DNA of 64,000 nucleotides from NCBI GenBank assembly GCA_937926355.1, contig CALAZP010000190.1, positions 40-64,039 of the forward strand. Reading direction: 5' to 3'. Positions 40,705 to 54,774 of this stretch are shown in pieces. The stretch comes from an uncultured Saprospirales bacterium (GTDB lineage: Bacteria > Bacteroidota > Bacteroidia > Chitinophagales > Saprospiraceae). How positions within the stretch are numbered: position 1 is the first letter of the stretch; each line of letters begins with the position of its first letter. The notes under the pieces were generated by a model that was not told where the DNA came from, ran no database searches, and saw only the letters and a list, made by a program, of their open reading frames with translations. A program made the position numbers and the translations under genes.

Positions 40705-40731
40705 AGCTCCCTGGTAACTGGGAGCTTTTTT
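40705..40731 (+). terminator. Rho-independent terminator
   Basis: AGCTCCC-TGGTAACT-GGGAGCT followed by TTTTT. Confidence 0.7.
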
Positions 40732-40741
40732 GTGTTAGGTT

Positions 40742-40749
40742 GATATATA
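40742..40749 (+). promoter_or_regulatory. Intergenic octamer GATATATA (candidate promoter element)
   Basis: Context aggttGATATATAactt; 25 nt upstream of the TTG at 40775. Confidence 0.45.
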
Positions 40750-40774
40750 ACTTGTATTCTTAAACACATACATT

Positions 40775-41446
40775 TTGAAAACATTAGTCGGGATAGACTT
40801 TTCCCTTAATTCACCAGCATTCTGCATTTTGAGAGACAACCAATTCACTTGGGGATCTCTGACCAGAAGTGATCGTACAGAAGATTCCTTAAAAAAGAAT
40901 TCTAAAAAACCTTACTCCGTCTTATCTGAGGATAAATCCGAAGATTATGTCCTGATGTTTATGTCAAAGGATAAAATGCCAGACGACTACTCCGAGAGAG
41001 AAAGGATAAAAATAGATTATTTCCAAGAACTTGTCGATGTGTTTTGGTCCGAGATTGAGAACCTCTGTGGTGGAGATGACATTGTGGTAGCTATGGAAGG
41101 ACTCAGCTTTTCTTCGAACGGAAATGCTTTAATAGATATTTCCATGGCAACTGCCCTTCTAAGGAAAAAAATAGTGGACCACACAGGAAGTGATAATTTC
41201 TATGTGTATTCTCCCACATCTGTGAAAAAGTTTGCTTACAAGGGAAATGCAAAAAAACACGAACTCTATAATTCTCTAATAGAGCACAGATTTCCCGAAA
41301 CTAATCTGAGGTCATTCACTACTATTTTAGAAGAAAACAAGGATGAATGGATAACTCCTTCTGGCAACGTAAATAAGCCACTTGACGATATTATCGATTC
41401 AACTTGGATATGTTTGTTTTTGCATGACTCAATCAAAGAAGATTAA
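40775..41446 (+). CDS. RuvC-like Holliday junction resolvase (RNase H fold)
   Basis: VGIDFSLNSPA (Asp 1), VVAMEGLSFSS (Glu), SPTSVKKFAYKGNAKKHEL, DDIIDSTWICLFL (C-terminal acidic pair). TTG start is uncertain. Confidence 0.65.
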   Translation: MKTLVGIDFSLNSPAFCILRDNQFTWGSLTRSDRTEDSLKKNSKKPYSVLSEDKSEDYVLMFMSKDKMPDDYSERERIKIDYFQELVDVFWSEIENLCGGDDIVVAMEGLSFSSNGNALIDISMATALLRKKIVDHTGSDNFYVYSPTSVKKFAYKGNAKKHELYNSLIEHRFPETNLRSFTTILEENKDEWITPSGNVNKPLDDIIDSTWICLFLHDSIKED

Positions 41447-42152
41447 TATACTCATTCCTCTTGGCGGTGCTGGAAGGAGATTTACTGAGGTAGGGTATAA
41501 GCAGGTAAAGCCTTTTATAGATGTAAAAGGTGAAACTATGATTAGGTCAGTTATCAAAAACCTGAACCATAGAGATGCACACTTTATATTTGTTGTAAAT
41601 GAGGAGTATATCTCCCCTAAGGAGTTTAAGTCCCATATAGAAGATATGGAGATCTCTTATGATATTTTCTCAACCCCCACCTTAACTCAAGGACCTGCTT
41701 CAACAGTTCTAATTGCCAAAGAATCTATAAACAACGAAGTTCCCCTCATTGTTATAAACTGTGATCAAATTATCCTGGATTTCGATTTGGGTCATTTAAT
41801 GAACTTTGCAAATTCAACGGGTTGTGATGGATTGTTAGGATGCTTCCTTTCTTCCTCTAAAAAGAACAGCTATGTAAAACTTGATCCTAACGGTGAGGTT
41901 TGTGATGTAAAGGAGAAAATAGTTATTTCCAATATAGCTACGAATGGATTGCATTTCTGGAAGCATGGTGAATATTTTGTCTCCAGTGCAGAACAGATGA
42001 TAGAATCTAATGACAGATACAACAACGAATTCTATGTTGCCCCCACCTACAATTATCTCATAAAAGATGGAAAAAAAATATTGCCTTTCTTCTATAATCT
42101 TCACTTTCCAATAGGAACCCCGGAGGACCTGGAAAGATTTTTAACGGTTTAG
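41424..42152 (+). CDS. Sugar/alcohol-phosphate nucleotidyltransferase (NTP_transferase, LicC/GCD1-like)
   Basis: ILIPLGGAGRRFTEVGYKQVKPFIDVKGETMI, the G-x-G-x-R..KP loop. I chose the ATG at 41424 over the listed TTG at 41382. Confidence 0.6.
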   Translation: MTQSKKINILIPLGGAGRRFTEVGYKQVKPFIDVKGETMIRSVIKNLNHRDAHFIFVVNEEYISPKEFKSHIEDMEISYDIFSTPTLTQGPASTVLIAKESINNEVPLIVINCDQIILDFDLGHLMNFANSTGCDGLLGCFLSSSKKNSYVKLDPNGEVCDVKEKIVISNIATNGLHFWKHGEYFVSSAEQMIESNDRYNNEFYVAPTYNYLIKDGKKILPFFYNLHFPIGTPEDLERFLTV

Positions 42153-42204
42153 CTATGCTCTCGTGCCGTAAATCGAGAACGAAACTTTCAAATAATACAA
42201 AACT

Positions 42205-42420
42205 ATGAACGAAGCAAAAAACATTAATAAACCCACTAAAAAGGCATGGAGTATAGCTTTTGTTATGTGGCGTTATTTCAAGTGGATATTAATCCCTGCG
42301 TGGCTTATTTTATGCGTAAACTTCGGTGCTTTTTTAGGTAAGTGCCTTTGGTTAACAATGACATACTTTGGTGTAGAAGATAACTTTGCAAGTTTTATTG
42401 AGTGGTTGGTTTGGTTTTAA
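42205..42420 (+). CDS. Small membrane protein, 71 aa
   Basis: Hydrophobic WILIPAWLILCVNFGAFLGKCLWLTMTYF. Confidence 0.5.
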   Translation: MNEAKNINKPTKKAWSIAFVMWRYFKWILIPAWLILCVNFGAFLGKCLWLTMTYFGVEDNFASFIEWLVWF

Positions 42421-42441
42421 TGCCACATAACAATAGTGTAA

Positions 42442-42765
42442 ATGGAGGTTTTTAGAATAGAAGAAATGAAAGATGGGTGGTATGCTGGTAATTTTTCCCC
42501 GGCAGCATACCAAACAGAACAATTTGAGATTTGCTACAAAAAGCATTTTAAGGGTGAAAAATGGCCAAAACATTATCACAAGGAGGCAGACGAAATTAAT
42601 TATCTCAGATCGGGTAAAATGATAATACAAGGCAGGGAGCTGAGTGCTGGAGATATATTCATATTGAGAAAAAACGAAATTGCTGATCCTGTTTTTTTGG
42701 ATGACTGTGAAGTCTTTATTGTAAAATCTCCTTCTGTGCCTGGAGATAAATTTGTGATTGAATGA
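42442..42765 (+). CDS. Cupin-fold protein, 107 aa (NDP-sugar ketoisomerase/epimerase-like or dioxygenase-like)
   Basis: KHYHKEADEINYLRSGKMIIQG..GDIFIL cupin motifs; stop overlaps the next start (ATGA). Confidence 0.5.
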   Translation: MEVFRIEEMKDGWYAGNFSPAAYQTEQFEICYKKHFKGEKWPKHYHKEADEINYLRSGKMIIQGRELSAGDIFILRKNEIADPVFLDDCEVFIVKSPSVPGDKFVIE

Positions 42766-43997
42766 TTAGTATTTTTAAAAATAAGGATGAATTTGATATT
42801 TCTGACTATTTTGTGGTTAGGTATTATTTGGAAGCTAAAACTTCTTTGAGAGATGCCTCTTGGAATTTGGCTATCGGTCAAAGTATCGGTAACCCGACGA
42901 ATCGCAGTGAATGGGAAACTGATGAAATGTTTGAAAATCACAGTTGTTTCATTCTTGCTTCTGAACAAGATCTTAGCCAAAAAAAAGATGGTGAAGTTGA
43001 AATTGCTTTCCCCTTGGCAAACATTAATTTGGAGGAGGATGGGATATCACAGATCCTTTGCCATATAGCCGGTGGACAAGTCGATATAGAAGAGGTGAAG
43101 CAGTGTCATGTTTTGGATATTGTTCTGCCTCAAGAAGTTGAAGACTCTTTTTCTTTGAAACCTGCTTACGGTATTAGTGGATGGAGAAGATTCAATGGAG
43201 TTGATGCCAAGCCTTTTCTAGGGGGAATAGTTAAACCTAAAGTAGGCATGCCCCCGGAGGTATTGCTAGAAGCTGTTAAAGAGATGGTTTATGGAGGGGT
43301 CAACTTTATTAAAGAGGATGAGCTCCTAGCAAACCCTTCTCACTGTCCACTAGAACAAAGAGTTCCTTTAATTTCATCTTGGTTAAAAGAAAATGCTCCG
43401 GATGTGATCTATTGTTTCTGTATCAATGGTGATAGCCCATATGCTTTGGAGAGAGCAAATTTTGTTGCAAATAATGGCGGGAACGGAATCCACATAAATG
43501 TCTGGAGCGGTCTTGGGGTATATCGTGCTATAAGGAAGCAAAACCCTAACATATGGATACATTTTCAAAAAAGTGGTGATAAATTCTTTACTGACAAAAG
43601 GGCACCATTCCACATCTACTGGCCTGTGATTTGTAAAATTGCTGGATGGTCTGGTGTGGATTCTATACATGCTGGAATGATTGGAGGTTATATGAACCAG
43701 GATAATGATGAGATACGGGATACTCTAAAAGTCCTCTGGCATTACAATATAGTTCCAGCTCTCAGTTGTGGAATGCATCCTGGTCTGGTTGATTATATCA
43801 ATGAATCTATACACAGTGTGGATTGGATGGCTAATGTTGGAGGAGCTATGCATGGACATCCAATGGGAACTAGAGCTGGTGGCTTGGCAATGAAGCAAGC
43901 CATCAATAATGATTTCCAAGAAGAGGAATATGTTTGCGCCATAAAGAAATGGGGAAAAAGAACATTTTCTAAAGACCTAGATTACAGGATATTTTAG
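42762..43997 (+). CDS. RuBisCO large-subunit-like protein (form IV-type RLP)
   Basis: GGIVKPKVG, GGVNFIKEDE, NIWIHFQ, GVDSIHAGMIGGY, PALSCGMHPG, NVGGAMHGHPMGTRAGG align to the RbcL catalytic motifs. Confidence 0.85.
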   Translation: MISIFKNKDEFDISDYFVVRYYLEAKTSLRDASWNLAIGQSIGNPTNRSEWETDEMFENHSCFILASEQDLSQKKDGEVEIAFPLANINLEEDGISQILCHIAGGQVDIEEVKQCHVLDIVLPQEVEDSFSLKPAYGISGWRRFNGVDAKPFLGGIVKPKVGMPPEVLLEAVKEMVYGGVNFIKEDELLANPSHCPLEQRVPLISSWLKENAPDVIYCFCINGDSPYALERANFVANNGGNGIHINVWSGLGVYRAIRKQNPNIWIHFQKSGDKFFTDKRAPFHIYWPVICKIAGWSGVDSIHAGMIGGYMNQDNDEIRDTLKVLWHYNIVPALSCGMHPGLVDYINESIHSVDWMANVGGAMHGHPMGTRAGGLAMKQAINNDFQEEEYVCAIKKWGKRTFSKDLDYRIF

Positions 43998-43998
43998 G

Positions 43999-44478
43999 AT
44001 GAGACTAATATCACACCGGGGAAATATAAAGGGGCCAATACCATCAAGAGAGAACAACCTTGACTACATACAAGAAGCTCTTGATCTTGGTTATGATGTG
44101 GAGATAGATGTTTGGATATCTGGATCTTCACTTTATTTAGGACACGATTCCCCAAATTCTAAGGTCTCCTTAGATTGGCTTATGGAGAGATCAGACAACC
44201 TTTGGATCCACTGCAAAAACATCTCTGCTCTTGTGTATCTAAAGGAGTATGTTGAATTCAATGTATTTTGGCATGAACAAGACAGAATAACTCTTACTTC
44301 TAAGTCTTTCATTTGGGCTTTCCCTGGAAATCAGCCCATAAATAAAAGTATCGCAGTTCTTCCTGAGATCTATGATGATCCTGTTAACGGATGCTGTGGA
44401 ATTTGCTCAGATTATATAGAGAAGTACAAATTTTTAAGTACAAATGAAAGTAGCTCTTTTACTTCCTGGACAGATTAG
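43999..44478 (+). CDS. Compact glycerophosphodiester phosphodiesterase (GDPD)-like protein
   Basis: ISHRGN, RENN, DVEIDVW, LGHD, LWIHCKN, GICSDY match the GDPD N- and C-terminal signatures in only 159 aa. Confidence 0.55.
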   Translation: MRLISHRGNIKGPIPSRENNLDYIQEALDLGYDVEIDVWISGSSLYLGHDSPNSKVSLDWLMERSDNLWIHCKNISALVYLKEYVEFNVFWHEQDRITLTSKSFIWAFPGNQPINKSIAVLPEIYDDPVNGCCGICSDYIEKYKFLSTNESSSFTSWTD

Positions 44479-45226
44479 GGAGGCAAAAGAAACCTTTCCC
44501 TACTTAAAAGGCAGAATTTTGGATAGGTTTAAGCCAGATGTTTTTATATCTACCTGGAGCCCATCTGAAACTATAAAAAATTCCCTTCATGCAGAAACAC
44601 ACTACCTTACTGACACCCTAAGCACCGACACTTTAGCAAGTCTTTATTCTCCAGTAACCATAAAGATGGACAAGTTTGAATCCCCGGGTATATCAAGGAT
44701 AGTAGATAAAGCGTGGTCGTTTGAAAGCTATGGCCCACAAACTGGTGAGATAAATCCAGTTTCGGTTTTCTTGATGTGGTATAAGATAAGACAGTCCTTT
44801 CTCCTTTTAGAGGAGCATGAAAACCTAACTGGTGAGAGATATGATTATATTATAAAAGGAAGAATGGACATAAAAATCCACAACGACATCCCTTTGGATC
44901 CAAATCTAAAAACTATATGTATTCCTCCCGGTTTTGATTGGAAGGGCGGGGTTAATGATATTTTTGCATGGGGAGGTAGGGAAGCAATGGAACACTACTC
45001 AAAACTCTACGAGATGATGGAAGAATACATTTTCTCTGGTGTTTACTTTCACCCCGAGACACTTTTAAAGCATCATATACTTAATTCTGAATTTAACCTT
45101 TCCCGCCCTATGGTAAAGGTATCCTTAAGAGGTAAGAGAGTGTGGGAAATTGAATCCACGGGTGAACGAATGGATAAAAAAAATTATGAATATATACAAT
45201 CTAAGGGAAACATTTGGGACACTTAG
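44444..45226 (+). CDS. Hypothetical protein, 260 aa; tentatively a WavE-like/GT-A-type glycosyl- or phosphotransferase
   Basis: Pattern VALLLPGQIR...DVFISTWS...YDYIIKGRMD...NDIFAWGG..M..Y. Confidence 0.3.
   Translation: MKVALLLPGQIREAKETFPYLKGRILDRFKPDVFISTWSPSETIKNSLHAETHYLTDTLSTDTLASLYSPVTIKMDKFESPGISRIVDKAWSFESYGPQTGEINPVSVFLMWYKIRQSFLLLEEHENLTGERYDYIIKGRMDIKIHNDIPLDPNLKTICIPPGFDWKGGVNDIFAWGGREAMEHYSKLYEMMEEYIFSGVYFHPETLLKHHILNSEFNLSRPMVKVSLRGKRVWEIESTGERMDKKNYEYIQSKGNIWDT
45189..45196 (+). promoter_or_regulatory. Variant octamer AATATATA(CAA), candidate promoter for the SSB gene
   Basis: tgAATATATAcaatc inside the 3' end of the upstream gene; 67 nt upstream of the ATG at 45264. Confidence 0.2.
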
Positions 45227-45263
45227 AGATTAAATAAAGGATTTAAAAATAATTAAAGGAATC

Positions 45264-46214
45264 ATGAGTAACTTAGACATTTTCAATTTGGATGCGGAAG
45301 CATTCGTAACGAAAGCAAAAAAGGAGAATTCAGAGGGAACAGAATTTTACAAACCATATCCGGAAAACGGAAAGGATGGAGTTTATAAATCGCTGATCCG
45401 TTTTCTTCCTAACCACGTCGATCCGACGAAATCAAAAATCCACAAGTACTACGTTTATCTAAACGATCCAACAACAGGAGATGGCTTCCCAGTTGACTGT
45501 CCGTCAACAGTAGGAAAAAAATCGGTACTTAAGGATATGTTCTGGAAGCTGAAAAATTCGCATTCAGCTGCAGATCAAGAGCTATCAAGAAGTTTTTCTA
45601 GAAAGGAAGACTATTACTCTCTCATCCAAATTGTACAGGATAAGCACAATCCTGAACTTGAGGGTAAAATTATGATCTTCAAATTTGGACGTAAGCTAAA
45701 TGATATGCTCGAAGCACAGCTTAAGCCTGAGTATGGTGATTCGTGCAACCCTTACGACCTTTTCGAGGGTAAACTTTTCTCAGTTCACACAAGAAAAGTT
45801 GGTGAGTGGAACAACTACGATCTTTGTTCATTTGTTGGAGATAGAACTCCTATCGAAATCAATGGCAAAAAGATGGAGAAAAATCAGGATGACATGAATG
45901 CAATCATGGAGTACCTTAAAACAGGTCCTGACAATCTCACCCAGTTTGAATATAAAGATTGGGACGATAACACTACTCAAAGGGTTATGAATGTGATTAA
46001 AAAAACAGTTCCAGATGGAAGGCTAGTTAATGAGGTTTTAGGAGGTGCAAACCAGACTTCGACCCCATCGTCATCTAGCTCAACGAATGACTTTTACAAC
46101 GAGGCTTCATCAACTAAAGTAGGCTCTGAACCTGCAAAGGAAGATAAAGGCATTAGTCAGCCATCAGCACCTGAAACATCTTCGTCTCTAGACGACCTAT
46201 ACGCAGATCTCTAA
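45264..46214 (+). CDS. gp32: Single-stranded DNA-binding protein, T4 gp32-like
   Basis: YKSLIRFLPN, EGKIMIFKFGRKLNDML, Ser-rich linker and acidic tail SSLDDLYADL as in gp32. Confidence 0.8.
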   Translation: MSNLDIFNLDAEAFVTKAKKENSEGTEFYKPYPENGKDGVYKSLIRFLPNHVDPTKSKIHKYYVYLNDPTTGDGFPVDCPSTVGKKSVLKDMFWKLKNSHSAADQELSRSFSRKEDYYSLIQIVQDKHNPELEGKIMIFKFGRKLNDMLEAQLKPEYGDSCNPYDLFEGKLFSVHTRKVGEWNNYDLCSFVGDRTPIEINGKKMEKNQDDMNAIMEYLKTGPDNLTQFEYKDWDDNTTQRVMNVIKKTVPDGRLVNEVLGGANQTSTPSSSSSTNDFYNEASSTKVGSEPAKEDKGISQPSAPETSSSLDDLYADL

Positions 46215-46227
46215 ATCTACCTTGAAT

Positions 46228-46268
46228 GGGGGCTAAGCAATAATCATTGCTGCCCCCTTTTCTTTTTT
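46228..46268 (+). terminator. Rho-independent terminator
   Basis: GGGGGC-TA-AGCAAT-AATC-ATTGCT-GCCCCC followed by TTTTCTTTTTT. Confidence 0.8.
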
Positions 46269-47572: not shown

Positions 47573-48019
47573 ATGTCAGAGCAACAAAAAACCGATTACA
47601 GTAAGCTTTTCGAAAGGGAAAGAGCTGAATGGAAAGAAAAAATCCAAGTGATATCTTTGAGCCTAAAAAACATTAGAACAGTTGCTGAAGCACAAGTGGA
47701 TTTGTTTTCCAATAGACAAATACTATTGGAATACAGCTATAAACTTGCTCAGATTGTTAATAAGCTTGCTACTAAGGAAAGAAAGCTGAGAGCTTCCAAA
47801 CTAAGAGATTATACGGTTAACAGTGATGTGAGATATGGATCGAATGAGACTAAATTACTTATTGAGGGAGATGTTGCCGATGTTGTGGAAAAAATACAAC
47901 TAGTGGAAGGACACCGCAAATTTATTGACCAAACAATCCAGACTGTTGATCACATGCTCTATGGTATTAAGTCAAGGATTGCTCTTGAAGAATATCTTAG
48001 AGCTAGCACGATAGAATAA
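47573..48019 (+). CDS. Possible UvsY-like recombination mediator
   Basis: About 148 aa, helical, directly upstream of the UvsW-like gene; C-terminal LYGIKSRIALEEY resembles the UvsY C-terminal helix. Weak. Confidence 0.4.
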   Translation: MSEQQKTDYSKLFERERAEWKEKIQVISLSLKNIRTVAEAQVDLFSNRQILLEYSYKLAQIVNKLATKERKLRASKLRDYTVNSDVRYGSNETKLLIEGDVADVVEKIQLVEGHRKFIDQTIQTVDHMLYGIKSRIALEEYLRASTIE

Positions 48020-48028
48020 GATAGGTAG

Positions 48029-49552
48029 ATGATCAAATTTAACGTATCTGAGGATCAACAATGGCTAATACTCGCTCAATCAAATGATGAGATAGAAAAA
48101 AGGCAAATTGAGATCTCTTTAACCAAGAAAATACACAATTGGTATTTTCACCCGCTAGTTAAGAAGAAGATCTGGGACGGTAATATTTGCTTTATAGAAA
48201 AAAGAGGGCCATTTTGGAAAGTCCCAGTTGGGCTCTGGAGGGAGGTTCTGGAGATAGGTAAAGAGTTTGGTATAGACATCGACATTGAGGGCCTTGATAA
48301 GATAATACTCAGCGACTTAACTCTGGAAGAGTTCCAAGAATGGGTAGACGGGTTCTTTGCAGATAAGGATATTACTCCCCGTGATTATCAGGTTGAAGCT
48401 GCATGGAAAATCGTAAAGTATAGGTATTCTGTATCTGAGATTGCTACTTCCTCTGGTAAGACACTTATATCCTTTATGATATTTGCTTTTCTTAAGCAGA
48501 GGGGACTGATTAGAAAGTTCTTAATGATTGTACCAAACACTAACCTAGTCTTCCAAGGAAACGGTGACTTTATAGATTATGGCATTGGCGAACTTGGTGT
48601 GAGAATCCAGCAAATTGGAGGTGGTAGTAAGCTTAGAGAAGGGTGTGATCTTATAATAGGTACTTTCCAATCTTTGGTTAAAAAAGACGAGGACTTCTTT
48701 GAGGAGATTGATGCAGTTTTCGTTGATGAAGCACATCACACAAACTCCATGTCAATTAAGAAGATTGTTGCTAAGTGTATGCACAGTAAGTGGAGGTTTG
48801 GTTTAACTGGGACACTTACTAAAAGGGGTTCAGCTGATCATTTAACCATACAGCAATTTTTGGGACCTGTTGTCGTTGAGATCTCACCGGATTTCCTTTT
48901 CAAAAATAAACACGCAACCCCGGTCCACATCAAGGTGGTAAGGATGAATTGGTTAGATGACGAGATCAAGGGGAAACTAGCAGATCTAAAAGCTAATTCA
49001 CAAAGTCTTGAGGGTAATGAACTTTATAACCTTGAGAGGAAACTTGTAATTGAAAGCGAGAAAAGACTTAATTACGTAGTTGAATTCATATCTAAAACAT
49101 CTAAGAATTCCTTGGTCCTATTCCAATCAGTAAAGGACGAGTATGGTAAGCAGATCTGGAATAGACTCAGGGAGGTAACCAACGATAAGGAGGTTTTTTA
49201 TGTCGATGGTGATACAGACGAATCTCTCAGGGAAGAGTATAAATCTAGGATGGCAAACGGTGAGAATAAAATACTGGTTGCGACATATGGCACTTTTTCT
49301 ACGGGTATCTCTATTAACAATCTTCACAACATTTTCTTGGTTGAGTCTTATAAGAGCGAGGTTCTCATTAAGCAGAGCCTCGGTAGGGGAATGAGAAAAA
49401 TGGACGGAAAGGAAAAAGTTAACGTGATTGACTTTGTGGACGATTTTTCCTCCCCAAAATACAAGAACTACCTGCTTAAGCACAGCGAAGCAAGGATTGA
49501 GATCTATAAAAACGAAAAGTTCAAGTATAAGATCTTTAATGTTAATCTCTAA
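48029..49552 (+). CDS. uvsW: SF2 DNA helicase, T4 UvsW-like
   Basis: Motif I TSSGKT, motif II VDEAHH, motif III TGT, motif VI QSLGRGMR; YGTFSTGISINNLHNIFL and C-terminal NYLLKH..KFKYKIFNVNL resemble UvsW. Confidence 0.7.
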   Translation: MIKFNVSEDQQWLILAQSNDEIEKRQIEISLTKKIHNWYFHPLVKKKIWDGNICFIEKRGPFWKVPVGLWREVLEIGKEFGIDIDIEGLDKIILSDLTLEEFQEWVDGFFADKDITPRDYQVEAAWKIVKYRYSVSEIATSSGKTLISFMIFAFLKQRGLIRKFLMIVPNTNLVFQGNGDFIDYGIGELGVRIQQIGGGSKLREGCDLIIGTFQSLVKKDEDFFEEIDAVFVDEAHHTNSMSIKKIVAKCMHSKWRFGLTGTLTKRGSADHLTIQQFLGPVVVEISPDFLFKNKHATPVHIKVVRMNWLDDEIKGKLADLKANSQSLEGNELYNLERKLVIESEKRLNYVVEFISKTSKNSLVLFQSVKDEYGKQIWNRLREVTNDKEVFYVDGDTDESLREEYKSRMANGENKILVATYGTFSTGISINNLHNIFLVESYKSEVLIKQSLGRGMRKMDGKEKVNVIDFVDDFSSPKYKNYLLKHSEARIEIYKNEKFKYKIFNVNL

Positions 49553-49562
49553 CCATTTGTCC

Positions 49563-49570
49563 GATATATA
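49563..49570 (+). promoter_or_regulatory. Intergenic octamer GATATATA (candidate promoter element)
   Basis: Context gtccGATATATAggat; 18 nt upstream of the ATG at 49589. Confidence 0.45.
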
Positions 49571-49588
49571 GGATAAATGAGGAAGAAA

Positions 49589-50077
49589 ATGGATAACATA
49601 AAAGATTTTCAAAGTTTTCTCAACGAGAATATTGAAAGAAGAGAACCATATTCTGCTACTGAGTGGATCAAGCAGAAAAGGAGAAGTATAGAGGCAGAAA
49701 CCGGCGCTGAGAAAATCTACCAAATGACTTATGATGAAGGGGGTGCTTTGCAGAGACTTGTAAAAGGTGCTGTTGAAGGGCTTCGAAACCTGGGTCAGGG
49801 AATTGCTGATCTTTTCGATTCTGGTAAGGCAGCAAGCATGGATATTGAGGGTCTTAGTAAAAATAAAGATCAGGTTTTATCTAGATGGGGAGATTCAATT
49901 AGAGCTTCTGGAAAAAACAAAAGGGGAGAATATGAAACCTTTTACAGAGACGCTATCCGAAAAGGTAAGTCAACTTTCGGTAAAGACTTTGACATCAACA
50001 ACCCACAGGGAAGAGACCAGCAACTTTACAGGGATTATGTCTTTTCTGCCACAGATTATTTTGATTTAGGAAGATGA
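49589..50077 (+). CDS. Hypothetical protein with leader MDNIKDFQSFLNE
   Basis: Start moved to the second ATG: the listed 49577 lies only 6 nt after the octamer, and gaggaag precedes 49589. The stop overlaps the next start (ATGA). Confidence 0.5.
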   Translation: MDNIKDFQSFLNENIERREPYSATEWIKQKRRSIEAETGAEKIYQMTYDEGGALQRLVKGAVEGLRNLGQGIADLFDSGKAASMDIEGLSKNKDQVLSRWGDSIRASGKNKRGEYETFYRDAIRKGKSTFGKDFDINNPQGRDQQLYRDYVFSATDYFDLGR

Positions 50078-50985
50078 GAAACGTGCTAAAATTCGGAGAT
50101 TACGTTTCGCTGTTCGAAGGTGGAGCTGCGATAAAGGAATCTAGGAGGATAAAGGAGAGTGAGGTTCCAAAAACCATGGAGTCCATCAAAGAAATTCTTT
50201 TCCCTCTGCTTGGTGGTGGGGAGGTAGACAAGGAGTATCTTATCATTGGTAGCATTGGTAAAAAGAAAGATCAAAATGACACATCTGGTGATATCGATCT
50301 TGGTATAGATAAAAAGTTCCTCTCTAAGAAGCTGGGTGTTTCTGAAGATGATGTTCTCGGAGCTTTATACAAAAATCTTTCGGAGACCTTACACAACAAA
50401 CTTGGCTTTGTACCAGATATGAAATTGATGAGAGGAATTAACGTTCTCTCGATTGGTTGGCCTATAGAGGGTGACGCTGAAAATGGTATAGTTCAATTAG
50501 ATCTTATTCCAATTTCTGATATGGAATGGGCTAAGTTTATATTCTATTCCCCAGATTACAGAAAGAACGAAAGTAAATACAAGTCGGCTCACAGAAACTG
50601 GCTTTTCCAAGCAATTCTTTCAGCACTAAAGGAAGTAATTTCTAAGGACGAAAATGGTGAACTGGAGGATTTTTATTCTTATGCCCTGAGGTTAAGCGAT
50701 GGGATTTACAAAAATAAGAAGTCTTTTAGGGGTGCTACAAAAAGACTCAAAAGTCCTAAAACGGTTAAAGGAAAAAGCACTTTGGTAACTAGAGATCCAG
50801 ACGAGTTTGTTGAGATGATGTTTGGTGGTGGGATTAAGAAGGAGGATCTAAAATCTTTTGAGGATGCTTGGAAGTTGGTTTCTTCTCCAAACTTTGTCCA
50901 TGCTGACAAGAGGGACGAGATCAGGGACGATCTGGAAAGATATTTAACAAACGGTGGATTTGAAATCCCCACCGAGATCAAATAA
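50074..50985 (+). CDS. Pol-beta-superfamily nucleotidyltransferase-like protein
   Basis: GSIGKKKDQNDTSGDIDLGID fits G[SG]-x(9-13)-D-x-D; third acidic candidate in VQLDLIP. Confidence 0.55.
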   Translation: MRNVLKFGDYVSLFEGGAAIKESRRIKESEVPKTMESIKEILFPLLGGGEVDKEYLIIGSIGKKKDQNDTSGDIDLGIDKKFLSKKLGVSEDDVLGALYKNLSETLHNKLGFVPDMKLMRGINVLSIGWPIEGDAENGIVQLDLIPISDMEWAKFIFYSPDYRKNESKYKSAHRNWLFQAILSALKEVISKDENGELEDFYSYALRLSDGIYKNKKSFRGATKRLKSPKTVKGKSTLVTRDPDEFVEMMFGGGIKKEDLKSFEDAWKLVSSPNFVHADKRDEIRDDLERYLTNGGFEIPTEIK

Positions 50986-51437
50986 TGGAGTTTACACAAA
51001 AACATAACGATTTAATCTACGGCGCCTTGGAGGTTTTCTTAGAAAAGGATTCACCTTCCCTAGTAGCGAGGGAAGAAGATGGACTTATTTCTTTTTCTAC
51101 CGTACTTGGTTTAAGTGGTGTAATTGAGAAGGAAGAGAATGGAAGTGCTAATGTATTTTTGGAGGGTCAAAAGTACTATGAAATTGAGAAAGAGGTTTTC
51201 CATCTAATAGAGAATAGAAACGATGCCCCAGAGGTTGAGTCTCTATTGGAAGAGTTGGCTATAATACATCAGATGGAATTACAGGAAAGATCGAAAATTC
51301 TTATAGAAACGATCATAAGAGGTTTAGCAAAACTTATAGTGGACCAAAAGGTAACTGTCGGAGTTGATATCCAACTTGGACCTGTACTTATTAAGAACAC
51401 CGATGAGATGGGGAACGTAAAAATTCTATTGAACTAA
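50985..51437 (+). CDS. Hypothetical acidic protein, 150 aa
   Basis: ORF with a TAATG overlap to the upstream gene. Confidence 0.45.
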   Translation: MEFTQKHNDLIYGALEVFLEKDSPSLVAREEDGLISFSTVLGLSGVIEKEENGSANVFLEGQKYYEIEKEVFHLIENRNDAPEVESLLEELAIIHQMELQERSKILIETIIRGLAKLIVDQKVTVGVDIQLGPVLIKNTDEMGNVKILLN

Positions 51438-51441
51438 GAGG

Positions 51442-53355
51442 ATGGCTGGGATAAATCACTTATATGACATTTACAACAAAAAAGGATCTGACTTTGTCAA
51501 TCAGCTTTTTAATCGTTATGTAACCATCAACGAAAAGATGGATGGCTCGGCTTTTTCTTTTGAAAGAGATAAGGAATCTGGAAATTTCCGGTTTTATAGG
51601 AGGGATCAAAGAAATCCAATAACTTTAGTGGACAGGACTCTCATGAAATATTACGAGAAGCCAATCCAGTATATCGAATCTCTTCCTCCAAACATACTTG
51701 AAAAAATACCTAGAGGATTGAGATTCGGGCTGGAATATTTTTCAAACACTAAACCTGTAGAGATCTCCTACGATAGATTGCCAAAGAATAACTTGATTCT
51801 TTCTTATATCCACAAGATGGGTACTGGAGGTAAGATAGAAAGCACTATTCAGGATAAGGGGGAATTAGACAATTGGGCAGATCTGATTGGGGTTGAAAGA
51901 CCACCAATTGTTTTTCAGGGAGTTCTAGACGAGGACCAGAAATCTGAACTTATGGAGTTTTTGAACACCCCGTTCAAGGATCTTGTCGAAAGATTCAAAA
52001 CTCAATCTTTTGTTAGGTTTGTTATTAAGACCCTGAACCCAGAGTTAACCAAAACTGCTCTCAACGATGACCTAGATAAGGACGTCGAGGGAATAGTTTT
52101 TAGGTTTGGCGAGCCCGATGGTGATAGTGATACCGTTTTAGCTAAAATGGTAGATCCAATATTCACCGAGATTGCTAAGCAAAAGTTTGCTGACAAAAAG
52201 AGCAAAAAGCCTTCTGATTTTCTAGGTATTACGCTGCTCGACGTAATGAATTTCATTTTGGAGAAAGATCTTTCCGAATTTGAAGTTGAAGGCGAGTCTG
52301 AGGACGAGAGATACATTTCCTTTATAGGAGACGTTTTTGTCAAGTTCCTTGATGAATACGAGGAAAAGTATAAGGGTACTGATTTCGAAGAACCAGATTA
52401 TCTAAAAAGAGAAGAATTTAGGTTAAACAAGGAAAAAATTAAGGATAGAAGAGTTCTTAAGTATGTTGAAAAAGACGACTCGTTCGAATCTCTATTCAAA
52501 CTCATTCTTAATTCCTTTAGAAAAATAAAAACCAGAGCTGGTGGAATAATCACAGCTGGTATGAAGGACCAAATGAATCTTTTGATCAAAGACATTAAGG
52601 ACTACATCAAAAAACCAGAGAAGAACGTAAACGAATCTAGGTTTATTAGCTTCGGTGAATTTAGGAAGGAGAACACCCCCTCTGTAGAATACCTACAGGA
52701 GGAGGATGATTCGGATACAAGTGATGATCCTTTTTTCTCATACCGTGAATTCATCAGCAAACTTGAGACTATTGATAACGAGGAGTTGCCAAACGAGGTA
52801 GAGATTCTTAAAGAGGACGATACCGAGGAAAGAAAGCCGGTAAATGTCATAATGGGTAGATTTCAGCCCTTCCACCAGGGGCACCTCAAGATGGCAAAGG
52901 ATCTTATGGAGAAAAACGATTTGCCTTCATTCGTTGTTGTAGTTTATCCTGGCCACAACAAGTCTGGAAAATCCCCATTTGATGAAGAATCTATCAAAAG
53001 ATACATGAATGCGATAGTTGCCAACAATGAAGAGATAGAAGGCTATGTTCTTGCTACTCGGGGACTTCTTGGTTCTGCCATTGCAAGACTAATAGATATG
53101 GGATATGATCCTAAGTTAATTGGTGCAGGCCCCGACCGAATAGATGACTACTCTAAGCAGATAGACTATGTTAAGATGTCTGATATAAAAGACAAAATAA
53201 GCGATGACCTAAGCATAGTAGAAACCCCAAGAGTAACGAGCGGTACCGAAGTTAGGCAAGCTATGAAAGACCAAGATTTTGCCAAGTTTAAAAAGATGGT
53301 TCCAAAAGAGGTCTCAAACCTCTATAATGACCTCATTACAAGCGTCAGGGACTGA
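51442..53355 (+). CDS. Fusion protein: N-terminal covalent nucleotidyltransferase (RNA/DNA ligase-like) domain plus C-terminal NMN adenylyltransferase-like (HxGH cytidylyltransferase fold) domain
   Basis: Ligase motifs: I INEKMDGS, III RFGLEYF, IV VEGIVFRF, V VLAKMVDP. C-terminal: IMGRFQPFHQGH and TSGTEVRQAM. Confidence 0.65.
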   Translation: MAGINHLYDIYNKKGSDFVNQLFNRYVTINEKMDGSAFSFERDKESGNFRFYRRDQRNPITLVDRTLMKYYEKPIQYIESLPPNILEKIPRGLRFGLEYFSNTKPVEISYDRLPKNNLILSYIHKMGTGGKIESTIQDKGELDNWADLIGVERPPIVFQGVLDEDQKSELMEFLNTPFKDLVERFKTQSFVRFVIKTLNPELTKTALNDDLDKDVEGIVFRFGEPDGDSDTVLAKMVDPIFTEIAKQKFADKKSKKPSDFLGITLLDVMNFILEKDLSEFEVEGESEDERYISFIGDVFVKFLDEYEEKYKGTDFEEPDYLKREEFRLNKEKIKDRRVLKYVEKDDSFESLFKLILNSFRKIKTRAGGIITAGMKDQMNLLIKDIKDYIKKPEKNVNESRFISFGEFRKENTPSVEYLQEEDDSDTSDDPFFSYREFISKLETIDNEELPNEVEILKEDDTEERKPVNVIMGRFQPFHQGHLKMAKDLMEKNDLPSFVVVVYPGHNKSGKSPFDEESIKRYMNAIVANNEEIEGYVLATRGLLGSAIARLIDMGYDPKLIGAGPDRIDDYSKQIDYVKMSDIKDKISDDLSIVETPRVTSGTEVRQAMKDQDFAKFKKMVPKEVSNLYNDLITSVRD

Positions 53356-53361
53356 TATATA
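53354..53361 (+). promoter_or_regulatory. Octamer GATATATA overlapping the upstream stop codon (candidate promoter element)
   Basis: Context ggacTGATATATAaaaa; 19 nt upstream of the GTG at 53381. Confidence 0.45.
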
Positions 53362-53380
53362 AAAAAATACAAATAAACCA

Positions 53381-53920
53381 GTGGATAAAAGAATACAGAG
53401 CTTCTCCGACTTCCTAAAGGCTTCTTCGATTAACGAGGGAGATGGATTTGGGACCTATCCTTTCTTATTAGTAAAGGATGGTGACATTTACAACTACCTT
53501 TTCCAATTAGAACTTGAGAATGGTTCTCAGAAAGGATTTATGTTGGTGGTTGGCAAATATTCTCAGTATGAGACAATGGAGGGACCTAAAAACTCTTACG
53601 CAGTTCTAAATATAAACGAGATAGCTCCTGAAATTATAGAAGATATTGCTATCAAGAAATCCGAAATACCCGATCTAAATGATGCTAAGTTTAATCTTAA
53701 GGACAATGTCCTAAGCAGATTTTTAGAGCAGATATCTAAGGCTTTATTAAATTATCTTGAGAAAAATCCAAAAGTAATTCGTATATTTGACGAAATGCAG
53801 GGTAATATGGATATCGAAAACTATGAAGAAATGGTAAAATCAGTTTTACTTTCCTTCTTAGGTCCAGAATGGGCAATCCAGGAAGGATCTCACAAGGGAA
53901 CATTCATAATCAGTAGATAA
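53381..53920 (+). CDS. Hypothetical protein with leader (M)DKRIQSFSDFLKASSINE
   Basis: GTG start; N-terminus paralogous to the leaders at 49589 and 58507. Confidence 0.5.
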   Translation: MDKRIQSFSDFLKASSINEGDGFGTYPFLLVKDGDIYNYLFQLELENGSQKGFMLVVGKYSQYETMEGPKNSYAVLNINEIAPEIIEDIAIKKSEIPDLNDAKFNLKDNVLSRFLEQISKALLNYLEKNPKVIRIFDEMQGNMDIENYEEMVKSVLLSFLGPEWAIQEGSHKGTFIISR

Positions 53921-53951
53921 TCCAAATTGAAACATTTACTCTTAACAATCC

Positions 53952-53959
53952 TATAAATA
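53952..53959 (+). promoter_or_regulatory. TATAAATA box (identical to the T4 late-promoter consensus)
   Basis: cTATAAATAagg; 18 nt upstream of the ATG at 53978. Confidence 0.35.
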
Positions 53960-53977
53960 AGGAAAATTTAAACAACT

Positions 53978-54154: not shown

Positions 54155-54178
54155 GAAACCAAACCACAAACAGATATT

Positions 54179-54204
54179 AGGCAGCCCTTCAGGCTGCCTT
54201 TTCT
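54179..54204 (+). terminator. Rho-independent terminator
   Basis: AGGCAGCC-CTTCA-GGCTGCCT followed by TTTCT. Confidence 0.75.
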
Positions 54205-54243
54205 GTGTACATGGAAATGGAAATGGAATAAAACCACCTAATC

Positions 54244-54251: not shown

Positions 54252-54270
54252 AGATGTAAATTTTATACAC

Positions 54271-54773: not shown

Positions 54774-54774
54774 A

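What the first reader, a model, noticed from the sequence alone, without database searches (positions are those of the whole stretch)
40742..46268. Six-gene sugar/phosphoester island co-transcribed with resolvase and SSB: candidate new phage pathway
One unit runs from the terminator at 40705 plus promoter-like octamer at 40742 to the strong terminator at 46228. In order it contains: RuvC-like resolvase; NTP-transferase (41424); a 71-aa membrane protein; a cupin; a RuBisCO-like protein; a compact GDPD-like phosphodiesterase; a WavE/GT-A-like protein (to 45226); and the gp32-like SSB. Starts and stops overlap or nearly abut (23-nt overlap at 41424, ATGA at 42762, 1-nt gap at 43998, 35-nt overlap at 44444), which suggests coupled expression. 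An activating nucleotidyltransferase, a cupin (ketoisomerase/epimerase type), an enolase/isomerase-type RLP acting on ketose phosphates, a phosphodiesterase and a transferase would fit synthesis and transfer of an unusual NDP-activated pentulose/polyol-phosphate. Expression alongside recombination and replication genes, and a gp56-class NTP pyrophosphatase nearby, make DNA hypermodification one possibility. Alternatives are remodelling of host surface polymers (teichoic-acid- or capsule-like phosphodiester glycans) or a salvage pathway (methionine salvage also pairs an RLP with a cupin). I know of no described phage system with this gene set.
Basis: inference. Interest (0 to 1): 0.9.

Follow-up and report, generated by a model that had tools for sequence, protein, structure and literature searches.

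The report
Phage RuBisCO-like sugar-activation gene cassette
A five-gene cassette built around a RuBisCO-like enzyme, inserted between two DNA-handling genes of an uncultured aquatic phage, most likely makes and transfers an unusual activated sugar for a surface glycan rather than modifying DNA; the same cassette recurs in many viruses and in SAR11 and other bacteria, and its chemistry is still unknown.

Summary
Identities are confirmed for the NTP-transferase, a metal cupin, a RuBisCO-like protein (RLP) and a compact GDPD-like protein. The last protein is GT-A-fold DUF7796, not WavE. The unit is not six genes plus resolvase and SSB. Most of 80 relatives of this phage lineage have RuvC directly next to SSB. 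Only the closest subclade carries a 3.8-kb insertion between them, so co-transcription with DNA genes is positional. The 71-aa membrane ORF is a strain-specific 281-bp insertion.

The core (NTP-transferase + cupin + RLP, usually with the GDPD-like protein) recurs in 77, 74 and 63 of 80 unrelated viral contigs. It also occurs in Pelagibacter, Verrucomicrobia, Beckwithbacteria, Nonomuraea and Azospirillum, all with an identical RLP active-site signature. Fusions link all the parts. Neighbours elsewhere are sugar O-methyltransferases, SDR epimerases, glycosyltransferases and O-antigen ligase.

Best reading: a mobile module that makes and transfers a nucleotide-activated sugar, with the RLP as an enolising, non-carboxylating step. 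DNA hypermodification is poorly supported. Phage RLPs were reported in 2018 with function unknown; I found no description of this partner set.

The parts
40705..40736 (+). Intrinsic-terminator-like hairpin plus T-run ending the upstream structural block. It is the left boundary of the transcription unit (context, not part of the cassette).
   Evidence: -13.3 kcal/mol, z -2.7.
40775..41446 (+). RuvC-like Holliday-junction resolvase. It is the ancestral left flank of the insertion, not part of the cassette.
   Evidence: phrog_159, 5e-15. It lies directly next to SSB in about 58 of 80 lineage relatives.
41424..42152 (+). Nucleotidyltransferase (NTP_transferase family, 242 aa), the activating enzyme of the cassette.
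   Evidence: PF00483, 50.4 bits against a cut-off of 21.2. phrog_3980, 2.9e-57. PDB 4evw, 1.3e-12. It is present next to the RLP in 77 of 80 viral loci. Relatives are fused to cupin, HAD or RLP.
42147..42427 (+). Strain-specific 281-bp insertion carrying a 71-aa hydrophobic ORF (42205-42420). Not part of the conserved cassette.
   Evidence: Absent from all 80 RLP loci, including L022, whose flanking genes are 96-99% identical. The alignment break is shown. Present in L161 and L162, absent in L163.
42442..42765 (+). Small single-domain metal cupin (107 aa).
   Evidence: phrog_24762, 9.7e-30. H44, H46, E51 and G58 are invariant in 37 relatives. The profile hits PDB cupins (quercetinase 2e-6; small Cupin_2 / mannose-6-P isomerase 7zvm 1.1e-4). 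It lies next to the RLP in 74 of 80 loci. It is fused to the NTP-transferase in at least 10 loci.
42762..43997 (+). RuBisCO-like protein (411 aa) of the phage/Beckwithbacteria 'IV-like' clade. It is non-carboxylating and is predicted to catalyse enolisation chemistry.
   Evidence: PF00016 7.6e-31 and PF02788 3.3e-5. It scores below every NCBIfam subfamily cut-off. K175, K177, K201, D203, E204 and H327 equivalents and the P1 glycines are kept. E60, N123, H294, R295, H298 and K334 equivalents are replaced.
43999..44478 (+). Compact GDPD-like (PLC-type) phosphodiesterase-fold protein (159 aa; the conserved core is about 145 aa).
   Evidence: phrog_34507, 6.3e-32. The profile hits GDPD 7e0v at 6.7e-5 with HRG/EN/ExD/HD aligned. 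The AF2 model has pLDDT 91.8, and its best TM-scores (0.51-0.57) are to GDPDs. It is present in 63 of 80 loci. Relatives are fused to p260 (L070) or to RLP (P0330).
44444..45226 (+). DUF7796-family protein with a GT-A-like fold (260 aa), the putative glycosyl or phosphoglycosyl transferase.
   Evidence: phrog_13607, 9e-18. DUF7796 is matched by 20 of 37 relatives. The AF2 model has pLDDT 90.2. Foldseek against PDB gives GT6/GT8 GT-A enzymes at E 3.6e-7, TM 0.39-0.47. Foldseek against BFVD gives cyanophage and giant-virus proteins at TM up to 0.80.
45264..46214 (+). gp32-like single-strand DNA-binding protein. It is the ancestral right flank of the insertion, not part of the cassette.
   Evidence: PF08804 2.3e-12 and phrog_224 7e-34. 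Adjacency to RuvC in relatives is shown.
46228..46268 (+). Strong terminator-like hairpin (12 bp with a 2-nt bulge) plus T-run. It is the right boundary of the transcription unit.
   Evidence: -18.8 kcal/mol, z -3.45.

Best explanation
Window 41424-45226 is a horizontally mobile cassette that makes a nucleotide-activated sugar (or sugar or polyol phosphate) and transfers it. It was inserted between the RuvC and SSB genes in one subclade of an uncultured aquatic myovirus lineage.

**Proposed mechanism (inferred unless marked)**
- The RLP keeps the carbamylated-lysine/Mg site and one phosphate site (shown by sequence). It lacks the residues needed for carboxylation (shown by sequence).
- I infer that it enolises a phosphorylated keto-sugar to isomerise or epimerise it.
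- The His-His-Glu metal cupin carries out a second isomerisation.
- The nucleotidyltransferase couples the resulting sugar phosphate to an NMP. In relatives a fused HAD domain may act first as mutase or phosphatase.
- The GT-A-fold DUF7796 protein, helped by the GDPD-like phosphodiesterase-fold protein, transfers the activated unit to a glycan acceptor.
- During infection the acceptor would be a host envelope glycan (LPS-like) or a virion protein, not DNA.

The RLP could act in either of two positions. It could be a feeder that makes the sugar phosphate, or a tailoring enzyme that acts on the NDP-linked keto sugar. The data do not decide between these.
For: **1. Synteny**
- NTP-transferase, cupin and GDPD-like genes accompany the RLP in 77, 74 and 63 of 80 viral loci (RLP identity 51-91%).
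- RuvC, SSB and primase occur only in the 16-20 loci of the same phage lineage. Gene orders are given.

**2. Rosetta-stone fusions**
- NTP-transferase-cupin fusions occur in at least 10 loci.
- HAD-NTP-transferase fusions occur in 13 loci and in Pelagibacter.
- Single examples exist of NTP-transferase-HAD, GDPD-like-DUF7796 (L070), RLP-NTP-transferase (P0283, an intact 667-aa ORF on its contig) and GDPD-like-RLP (P0330).
- Sources.

**3. Bacterial loci**
- The same gene set accompanies an RLP with an identical 20-residue active-site signature in Pelagibacter, Verrucomicrobia, Beckwithbacteria, Elusimicrobia, Nonomuraea and Azospirillum. More distant RLPs have neither the partner genes nor the signature.

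**4. Context is glycan biosynthesis**
- Pelagibacter: Wzy_C O-antigen ligase, GT1, GT9 heptosyltransferase, SDR epimerase and a KdsB-type cytidylyltransferase.
- Nonomuraea: GT2. Azospirillum: PAPS synthesis genes plus a GT41.
- Viral loci: CmcI/FkbM/TylF-type O-methyltransferases lie directly beside the RLP in 33 of 79 loci, together with SDR, GT2 and DegT genes.
- Cultured cyanophages Bellamy and SynMITS9220M01 carry the cassette without the RLP inside a large epimerase/GT/heptose-type cluster.

**5. The transferase**
- It has a GT-A-like fold. Its relatives are in chloroviruses, mimivirus-like viruses and cyanophages.

**6. The island is an insertion**
- About 58 of 80 relatives have RuvC abutting SSB.
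Against: - No enzyme here has a characterised orthologue, so substrate, nucleotide and product are all unknown.
- The RLP is dispensable for the rest of the cassette in cultured cyanophages, so its step is not essential to the basic pathway.
- The cupin is missing from the Pelagibacter versions.
- The GT-A assignment rests on moderate TM-scores (0.39-0.47), and the window protein itself has no Pfam hit.
- A GDPD-fold enzyme has no obvious place in a textbook nucleotide-sugar route. It sometimes occurs alone between RuvC and SSB.
- RLP, HAD and cupin together also echo the second half of Bacillus methionine salvage.
- The acceptor (host envelope or virion) is pure inference.
- The RLP-NTP-transferase and GDPD-RLP fusions are each seen only once.
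Confidence: 0.6

Rival explanations
1. Salvage-type auxiliary metabolism. The RLP and cupin (with the HAD in relatives) would process a 5-substituted ribulose phosphate derived from MTA, SAH or 5'-deoxyadenosine. This would parallel the Rhodospirillum MTA-isoprenoid shunt (RLP isomerase plus cupin methylsulfurylase) or the Bacillus MtnW/MtnX/MtnD steps. It would relieve product inhibition or recycle sulfur during infection.
For: - An RLP paired with a small metal cupin is the precedent in the MTA-isoprenoid shunt, and RLP + HAD + cupin is the precedent in Bacillus methionine salvage (my own knowledge of these pathways; PMC5893883 and PMC4958253 were listed but not read).
- The RLP keeps the enolisation machinery.
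- The Nonomuraea locus contains a protein with an AdoHcyase-type NAD domain and a dNK-like kinase.
- SAM-dependent methyltransferases, which produce SAH, are frequent neighbours.
Against: - The NCBIfam MtnW models score far below their cut-offs (111 bits against 409; 78 against 513.6).
- No recurrent unassigned family sits in a fixed position beside the RLP that could be an MtnA, MtnB, MtnK or MtnP partner. Only 10 of these families were typed with Pfam.
- A salvage route does not explain the near-obligatory NTP-transferase, which is even fused to the RLP and to the cupin. It also does not explain the GT-A transferase or the O-antigen/LPS contexts.
Confidence: 0.12
2. Phosphodiester decoration (teichoic-acid-like or LicC/LicD-like). 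The cassette would make an NDP-activated polyol or ketose phosphate, as in the CDP-ribitol and CDP-6-glucitol routes. It would then transfer the phospho-unit, not the sugar alone, onto a glycan. The GDPD-fold protein would handle the phosphodiester.
For: - The GDPD catalytic motif is fully conserved, and the protein is fused to the transferase (L070) and to the RLP (P0330).
- An abstract listed (PMC10918830, not read further) reports biosynthesis of CDP-6-D-glucitol for Campylobacter capsules. From my own knowledge, that route starts with cytidylylation of a ketose 6-phosphate.
- No kinase or clear mutase is present in the window cassette to make a sugar-1-phosphate.
Against: - No reductase is conserved in the core to make a polyol.
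- The transferase has a GT-A fold, not a LicD or TagF fold.
- NTP-transferase-cupin fusions resemble sugar-1-phosphate routes (type II PMI-GMP architecture; my knowledge).
- This is a variant of the best explanation rather than a true opposite.
Confidence: 0.15
3. DNA hypermodification. The activated sugar would be attached to phage DNA bases to evade restriction.
For: - The cassette lies in one transcription unit with the resolvase and SSB, bounded by the two terminators.
- Phage DNA glycosylation exists in other phages (my knowledge).
Against: - The position is an insertion accident: about 58 of 80 relatives have RuvC next to SSB without the cassette.
- The same cassette sits in chromosomal LPS/O-antigen islands of free-living bacteria and in cyanophage glycan clusters.
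- No hydroxymethylase, base-modifying or DNA-glycosyltransferase gene was found in the neighbours scanned.
Confidence: 0.05
4. Carbon metabolism. The RLP would be a working carboxylase or part of a pentose-bisphosphate (AMP) pathway that boosts host carbon flux.
For: - Its best profile match is the type III RuBisCO model (1.7e-45). Its best PDB match is a form III enzyme (2cwx, 2.9e-32).
Against: - It scores 155.6 bits against a cut-off of 497.
- The equivalents of E60, N123, H294 and K334 are replaced throughout the clade.
- No AMP phosphorylase or R15P isomerase is present in the loci. The IF-2B fusions belong to other RuBisCO clades.
Confidence: 0.02

Closest known systems
Phage / Beckwithbacteria 'form IV-like' RuBisCO-like proteins (Jaffe et al. 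2018, bioRxiv 10.1101/386292), and probably the unassigned RuBisCO homologue groups of the Global Ocean Sampling data (PMC1821046)
   Same: It is the same kind of protein: a divergent RLP on myovirus-like and very large phage contigs from many environments, grouping with Beckwithbacteria. Here the Beckwithbacteria locus L089 is 51% identical and has the identical active-site signature.
   Different: That work left the function open. Its main text mentions no nucleotidyltransferase, cupin or glycosyl partners. The conserved partner set, the fusions and the bacterial LPS-island context are added here.
Glycan (LPS-like) gene clusters of cultured Synechococcus myoviruses such as Bellamy (NC_047838) and SynMITS9220M01 (MT408532)
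   Same: They contain contiguous homologues of the NTP-transferase (fused to HAD), the cupin, the DUF7796 protein and the GDPD-like protein. Identities are 24-51% to members of the cassette families; the window's own cupin and GDPD-like protein are 40-45% identical by tblastn. The genes sit among epimerases and glycosyltransferases.
   Different: They have no RLP. Instead the cluster includes a kinase, a second cupin and NTP-transferase and, in Bellamy, a phosphoheptose isomerase and an aldolase.
Type II phosphomannose isomerase / GDP-mannose pyrophosphorylase (bifunctional NTP_transferase-cupin enzymes) and the GDP-glycero-manno-heptose route GmhA/HddA/GmhB/HddC
   Same: The architecture and logic match: an N-terminal NTP_transferase fused to a C-terminal metal cupin occurs in relatives. 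A HAD enzyme is coupled to the nucleotidyltransferase. There is a weak HddC-model hit (9.7e-9).
   Different: There is no hit to the PMI cupin family or to any equivalog cut-off. Here a RuBisCO-fold enzyme stands where a sugar-phosphate isomerase would be expected. This is a resemblance from my knowledge of those pathways, not a membership.
RLP-cupin pair of the Rhodospirillum MTA-isoprenoid shunt, and MtnW/MtnX/MtnD of Bacillus methionine salvage
   Same: A non-carboxylating RLP that enolises a ketose phosphate works with a small metal cupin and, in Bacillus, a HAD phosphatase.
   Different: The MtnW models score far below their cut-offs. The active-site signature is different. Here the obligatory partners are a nucleotidyltransferase and glycan enzymes, not MtnA/B/K.
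Virus-encoded glycosylation machinery of chloroviruses and mimivirus-like giant viruses
   Same: The DUF7796 GT-A-like protein has close fold relatives in PBCV MT325, Tupanvirus, Catovirus, Fadolivirus and CroV (TM 0.6-0.73). Some RLP loci are on contigs labelled as giant-virus MAGs.
   Different: None of the characterised giant-virus glycan pathways known to me uses an RLP. The target of glycosylation here is unknown.

Membership tests
RuBisCO large-subunit superfamily | Significant match to the catalytic and N-terminal domain models | tested here: met
   PF00016 scores 107.9 bits (cut-off 30.1). PF02788 scores 24.5 bits (cut-off 20.7). There are 99 PDB RuBisCO/RLP matches.
Bona fide RuBisCO (forms I-III) | Full catalytic set including E60, N123, H294 and K334, and a score above the subfamily cut-off | tested here: not met
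   The equivalents are G39/Q40, G105/Q106, Q269 and Y310, invariant in the clade. TIGR03326 scores 155.6 bits against a cut-off of 497.45.
RuBisCO superfamily enolisation core | K175, K177, carbamylated K201, metal ligands D203 and E204, H327, and the P1-site S379/G381/G403/G404 | tested here: met
   K158, K160, K184, D186, E187, H303, S335, G337, G360 and G361 are invariant. Carbamylation itself cannot be tested with these tools.
MtnW/YkrW DK-MTP-1-P enolase | Score above the NCBIfam equivalog cut-off | tested here: not met
   PRK09549 scores 111.2 bits against 409. TIGR03332 scores 78.1 against 513.6.
OiaX 3-oxo-isoapionate-4-phosphate decarboxylase | Score above the NCBIfam equivalog cut-off | tested here: not met
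   121.3 bits against a cut-off of 700.
Phage/Beckwithbacteria 'IV-like' RLP clade | Groups with phage and Beckwithbacteria RLPs, apart from the classical form IV clades | tested here: met
   It is 51-91% identical to 123 IMG/VR proteins. It is 51% identical to a Beckwithbacteria MAG protein with the identical signature. It is only 25-30% identical to other RLPs. No tree was built.
NTP_transferase (sugar-phosphate nucleotidyltransferase) family | Pfam model above the gathering score | tested here: met
   PF00483 scores 50.4 bits against 21.2. No NCBIfam equivalog cut-off is reached, so specificity is unknown.
Cupin superfamily (metal-binding) | G(x)5HxH(x)3-4E(x)6G motif and a beta-barrel match | tested here: met
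   G38..H44-x-H46..E51..G58 are conserved; H44, H46, E51 and G58 are invariant. The profile hits PDB cupins at 2e-6 to 1e-4. The single-sequence Cupin_2 score of 16.8 bits is below the 27.2 cut-off.
Glycerophosphodiester phosphodiesterase (GDPD) family | Catalytic HRG / EN / ExD / HD residues | tested here: met
   H6, R7, G8, E18, N19, E35, D37 and H49 are invariant and D50 is conserved in at least 90% of relatives. All align to GDPD 7e0v (E 6.7e-5).
Glycerophosphodiester phosphodiesterase (GDPD) family | Complete (beta/alpha)8 barrel of about 240 residues and a Pfam GDPD match | tested here: inconclusive
   There is no Pfam hit. The protein has about 145 conserved residues. The AF2 model (pLDDT 91.8) aligns best to GDPDs at TMq 0.51-0.57 but with E 0.03-0.1.
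WavE (PF07507) | Match to the Pfam model | tested here: not met
   No hit was found for the window protein at E <= 0.1 or for any of 37 relatives at E <= 0.05.
DUF7796 (PF25072) / GT-A-fold glycosyltransferases | Family-model match and a GT-A Rossmann-like fold with an acidic motif after beta-4 | tested here: met
   20 of 37 relatives match DUF7796 (best 7.8e-10); the window protein itself does not. Foldseek hits GT6/GT8 enzymes at E 3.6e-7, TM 0.39-0.47. R140-x-D142 is invariant. Transferase activity was not tested.
Phage DNA hypermodification systems | A base-modifying enzyme (e.g. pyrimidine hydroxymethylase) or DNA glycosyltransferase in the same genome region, and restriction of the cassette to viruses | tested here: not met
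   None was found among 20 neighbouring proteins scanned. The cassette occurs in chromosomal glycan islands of bacteria. Only 64 kb of the phage was available.

The most novel reading that the evidence does not exclude
The 'IV-like' RuBisCO-like proteins of phages, giant-virus-like contigs, SAR11 and other bacteria form one isofunctional clade. This clade performs a previously unknown enolisation-based step in making a rare, often O-methylated, nucleotide-activated sugar for surface or virion glycans. That would be a third functional realm for the RuBisCO fold, after carbon fixation and sulfur or sugar-acid salvage, and it is spread between viruses and cells as a mobile cassette.
Probability: 0.4. 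Interest if true: 0.8.

Novelty: new variant of a known kind. Interest (0 to 1): 0.66.

Why it matters
RuBisCO-like proteins have so far been tied to methionine/MTA salvage and to sugar-acid catabolism. The function of the large phage and ocean clade has been open since it was first seen in metagenomes.

The analysis here shows that this clade travels with a nucleotidyltransferase, a cupin, a GDPD-fold protein and a GT-A-fold transferase. It is even fused to some of them, and it sits in glycan islands from SAR11 to actinomycetes. That turns an orphan enzyme into a defined, reconstitutable pathway.

- It names cultured organisms in which the pathway can be tested: Nonomuraea rosea and Azospirillum oleiclasticum, plus RLP-less cyanophages as natural controls.
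- If confirmed, it would add a new chemistry to nucleotide-sugar biosynthesis.
- It would identify a widespread viral tool for altering cell or virion surfaces in the ocean's most abundant bacteria.

Tried and rejected
- **GenBank phages.** blastn of the island (distant mode) and tblastn of the RLP against GenBank phages found nothing. The phage is known only from metagenome contigs.
- **tRNAs.** None in the window.
- **Promoter.** The octamer at 40742 is not enriched as a recurrent motif. Sigma-70-like and terminator-like counts in the region equal shuffled expectation.
- **WavE.** Rejected.
- **Sequence search of the DUF7796 profile against PDB.** Only noise. Structure prediction was needed.
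- **Foldseek of the GDPD-like model.** No hit with E below 0.001. GDPDs had the best TM-scores, but HisF-type barrels ranked higher by E-value.
- **Literature.** Searches for the RLP together with cupin or nucleotidyltransferase, giant virus, SAR11, 'IV-like', O-antigen or nucleotide sugar found no paper linking an RLP to glycan synthesis. The library lacks most subscription journals, so absence is weak evidence.
- **gp56-class pyrophosphatase.** I looked for it and for DNA-modification genes in ORFs 47573-57501 and 60077-61553. I found helicase, DNA polymerase, RNR beta, an RNA-ligase/cytidylyltransferase fusion, HSP20 and HhH-GPD only.
- **Naming the sugar.** I considered heptose, mannose-like, methylthio-pentose, polyol phosphate and ketopentose bisphosphate epimer. 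I dropped the attempt because no partner enzyme reaches any equivalog threshold.
- **IF-2B-RuBisCO and TIR-RuBisCO fusions.** Those found in the representative library belong to other clades and were set aside.

Full report
**1. What is in the sequence**

Between 40775 and 46214 the + strand carries eight tightly packed ORFs.
There is a 23-nt overlap at 41424-41446, an ATGA overlap at 42762, a 1-nt gap at 43998 and a 35-nt overlap at 44444-44478.
- Gene calls made independently on public metagenome contigs that carry the same phage (112-168 kb) give the same genes.
- The block is bracketed by two hairpin-plus-T-run sites. One is at 40705-40726 (-13.3 kcal/mol, z -2.7). The other is at 46228-46268 (-18.8 kcal/mol, z -3.45).
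- The 'promoter-like octamer' at 40742 is not a recurrent motif.

**2. Protein identities**
- RuvC-like resolvase: phrog_159, 5e-15.
- NTP_transferase: PF00483, 50.4 bits. Nearest structure 4evw, an uncharacterised NDP-sugar pyrophosphorylase (1.3e-12).
- A 107-aa cupin with the invariant metal motif H44-x-H46...E51...G58.
- A 411-aa RuBisCO large-chain homologue: PF00016, 7.6e-31.
- A 159-aa protein whose family profile matches glycerophosphodiester phosphodiesterases over the catalytic HRG/EN/ExD/HD motif (E 6.7e-5).
- A 260-aa protein with no Pfam hit of its own.
- gp32-type SSB, followed by a primase.
- Sources.

The 260-aa protein is not WavE.
- Twenty of 37 relatives match DUF7796.
- An AlphaFold model (pLDDT 90) resembles GT-A glycosyltransferases of families GT6 and GT8 (E 3.6e-7, TM 0.39-0.47).
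- It resembles uncharacterised proteins of cyanophages, chloroviruses and mimivirus-like viruses much more closely (TM up to 0.80).

The model of the GDPD-like protein (pLDDT 92) is a cut-down barrel. Its best TM-scores (0.51-0.57) are to GDPDs, but the E-values are weak.

**3. The RuBisCO homologue is not a carboxylase**

I aligned it to a form III enzyme, to 36 relatives and to bacterial relatives.
- Kept: K175, K177, the carbamylated K201, the metal ligands D203 and E204, H327, and the P1 phosphate site (S379, G381, G403, G404).
- Replaced by fixed residues: E60, T65, W66, N123, H294, R295, H298 and K334 become G/Q, N, P, G/Q, Q, K, D and Y.
- It falls far below the curated cut-offs of the form III, MtnW and OiaX models.

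It is therefore an RLP that probably still enolises a phosphorylated keto compound. It belongs to none of the characterised RLP families.

**4. What the unit really is**

A search with the RLP found 123 relatives in IMG/VR. In the 80 loci fetched:
- the NTP-transferase, cupin and GDPD-like genes accompany the RLP in 77, 74 and 63 loci;
- RuvC, SSB and primase are present only in the 16-20 loci that are the same phage lineage.

The converse search used the SSB.
- About 58 of 80 lineage relatives have RuvC directly beside SSB (716-1362 bp from start to start).
- Only the closest subclade has about 3.4 kb of extra DNA between the two genes (3.8 kb in the window, which also carries the 281-bp insert).
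- Four relatives have only the GDPD-like gene there.

So the cassette (window 41447-45263) is an insertion into an ancestral RuvC-SSB junction. Its co-transcription with DNA genes follows from where it landed.

Two further points about the window copy:
- The 71-aa membrane ORF lies on a further 281-bp insertion. That insertion is absent even from a relative whose neighbouring RuvC, NTP-transferase and cupin genes are 96-99% identical.
- The cassette is mosaic. Its left half matches one relative, and its GDPD-like and DUF7796 genes match another. This pattern is expected for genes under diversifying pressure.

**5. Evidence that the parts work together**
- The gene order NTP-transferase > cupin > RLP dominates.
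- Fusion proteins join the parts:
  - NTP-transferase-cupin, in at least ten loci, several on contigs labelled giant-virus MAGs;
  - HAD-NTP-transferase, in thirteen loci and in Pelagibacter;
  - NTP-transferase-HAD;
  - GDPD-like-DUF7796;
  - RLP-NTP-transferase (P0283, an intact 667-aa ORF);
  - GDPD-like-RLP (P0330);
  - sources.
- The same gene set, with an RLP carrying the identical 20-residue signature, is found in several bacteria: Pelagibacter (including a complete chromosome), a Verrucomicrobiae chromosome, Beckwithbacteria, Patescibacteria, Elusimicrobia, Nonomuraea rosea and Azospirillum oleiclasticum.
- RLPs that are only 25-30% identical have neither the partners nor the signature.

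**6. What the context says about function**
- **Pelagibacter:** the cassette lies among an O-antigen ligase (Wzy_C), GT1 and GT9 glycosyltransferases, an SDR epimerase and a KdsB-type cytidylyltransferase.
- **Nonomuraea:** it lies beside a GT2 on an integrase-flanked island.
- **Azospirillum:** it lies beside PAPS synthesis genes and a GT41.
- **Viral loci:** 33 of 79 have a sugar O-methyltransferase (CmcI, FkbM or TylF type) directly beside the RLP. SDR epimerase/dehydratases, GT2s and a DegT aminotransferase are common nearby.
- **Cultured Synechococcus myoviruses:** Bellamy and SynMITS9220M01 carry NTP-transferase(-HAD), cupin, DUF7796 and GDPD-like genes contiguously but without an RLP. 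The genes sit inside a large epimerase/glycosyltransferase/heptose-type cluster.

All of this points to the biosynthesis and transfer of a nucleotide-activated sugar. The RLP is an optional extra step.

**7. Mechanism**

*Shown:* the RLP keeps an enolisation-competent metal site but not the carboxylation residues. The cupin keeps a His-His-Glu site. The NTP-transferase, the GDPD catalytic residues and the GT-A-like fold are present.

*Inferred:*
- The RLP isomerises or epimerises a phosphorylated keto-sugar.
- The cupin does a further isomerisation. The NTP_transferase-cupin architecture is that of type II phosphomannose isomerase/GDP-mannose pyrophosphorylase (my knowledge).
- The nucleotidyltransferase activates the product.
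- The DUF7796 and GDPD-like pair transfers it to a glycan on the host envelope or the virion.

I cannot decide whether the RLP feeds the pathway or tailors an NDP-keto sugar. I also cannot name the sugar.

**8. Rivals**
- **DNA hypermodification** loses its only support once the insertion is recognised. It is also contradicted by the chromosomal LPS-island homologues, and no base-modifying gene was found nearby.
- **A methionine/MTA-type salvage role** is suggested by the RLP-cupin(-HAD) combination. It does not explain the obligatory nucleotidyltransferase or the glycan context, and the MtnW models fail.
- **A phosphodiester (teichoic-like) decoration** is a plausible variant of the main model that would give the GDPD-fold protein a role.
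- **Carbon fixation** is excluded by the active site.

**9. Novelty**

Phage RLPs were reported by Jaffe et al. (10.1101/386292; about 90 sequences plus Beckwithbacteria, 'functionality unclear'). Unassigned RuBisCO homologue groups were noted in GOS data. Phage and giant-virus glycan clusters are also known.

I could not find three things in the searchable literature: the link between this RLP clade and a nucleotidyltransferase/cupin/GDPD/GT-A module, the fusions, and the shared active-site signature across viruses and bacteria. I therefore class the finding as a new variant of a known kind. It is an uncharacterised pathway, not a new kind of system, and it is of above-average interest.

Noticed in passing
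window 42147-42427 (ORF 42205-42420): A 281-bp insertion carries a 71-aa hydrophobic ORF between the NTP-transferase and cupin genes. It is absent from all 80 related viral loci, including L022, whose neighbouring RuvC, NTP-transferase and cupin genes are 96-99% identical. It is present in metagenome contigs L161 and L162 but not in L163.
   Followed up: partly
window 41424-45226 compared with L022 and L001: The cassette is a recombinant mosaic. RuvC, NTP-transferase and cupin are 96-99% identical to L022, while the GDPD-like and DUF7796 genes are 78% and 65% identical to it. Those two genes are 99% and 97% identical to L001, whose left half is only 73-84% identical.
   Followed up: partly
L189-L191 and L193 (about 5800-7000 in L189-L191; about 1390-2600 in L193): In four relatives of the phage lineage only a GDPD-like gene sits between RuvC and SSB. 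It is either a remnant of the cassette or an independent acquisition.
   Followed up: no
window 51442-53355: A 637-aa protein combines an RNA-ligase domain (PF09414) with a C-terminal cytidylyltransferase-like domain (PF01467; phrog_3041 and phrog_395).
   Followed up: no
window 56477-56833 and 57115-57501: The replication block encodes a phage HSP20/alpha-crystallin protein and a short (128-aa) HhH-GPD base-excision-repair-type protein.
   Followed up: no
P0354, P0319 and P0324 (representative protein library): P0354 is a 583-aa protein fusing a TIR domain to a full-length RuBisCO large chain. P0319 and P0324 are IF-2B (ribose-1,5-bisphosphate-isomerase-like) fusions to form-III-like RuBisCO. 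They are unrelated to this cassette but unusual architectures.
   Followed up: no
L094 (Nonomuraea rosea, about 5100-14700): The bacterial copy of the cassette (GDPD-like, RLP, cupin, NTP-transferase, GT2, a protein with an AdoHcyase-type NAD domain, and a dNK-like kinase) is flanked by a phage-type integrase and a transposase. It therefore looks mobile in an actinomycete too.
   Followed up: partly
L167 (Synechococcus phage Bellamy, 4489-11555) and L168 (SynMITS9220M01, 5632-8313): Cultured cyanophages carry the NTP-transferase(-HAD), cupin, DUF7796 and GDPD-like genes without the RLP. In Bellamy a double NTP-transferase, an aldolase and a short phosphoheptose isomerase are inserted between them.
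   Followed up: partly
window 1-40400: The upstream 40 kb is a structural block with several very large ORFs (up to 1842 aa). Only a baseplate-wedge match (7783-9564) and weak tail-fibre matches (32645-34147) were found. Most of the large proteins scanned have no PHROG family.
   Followed up: no
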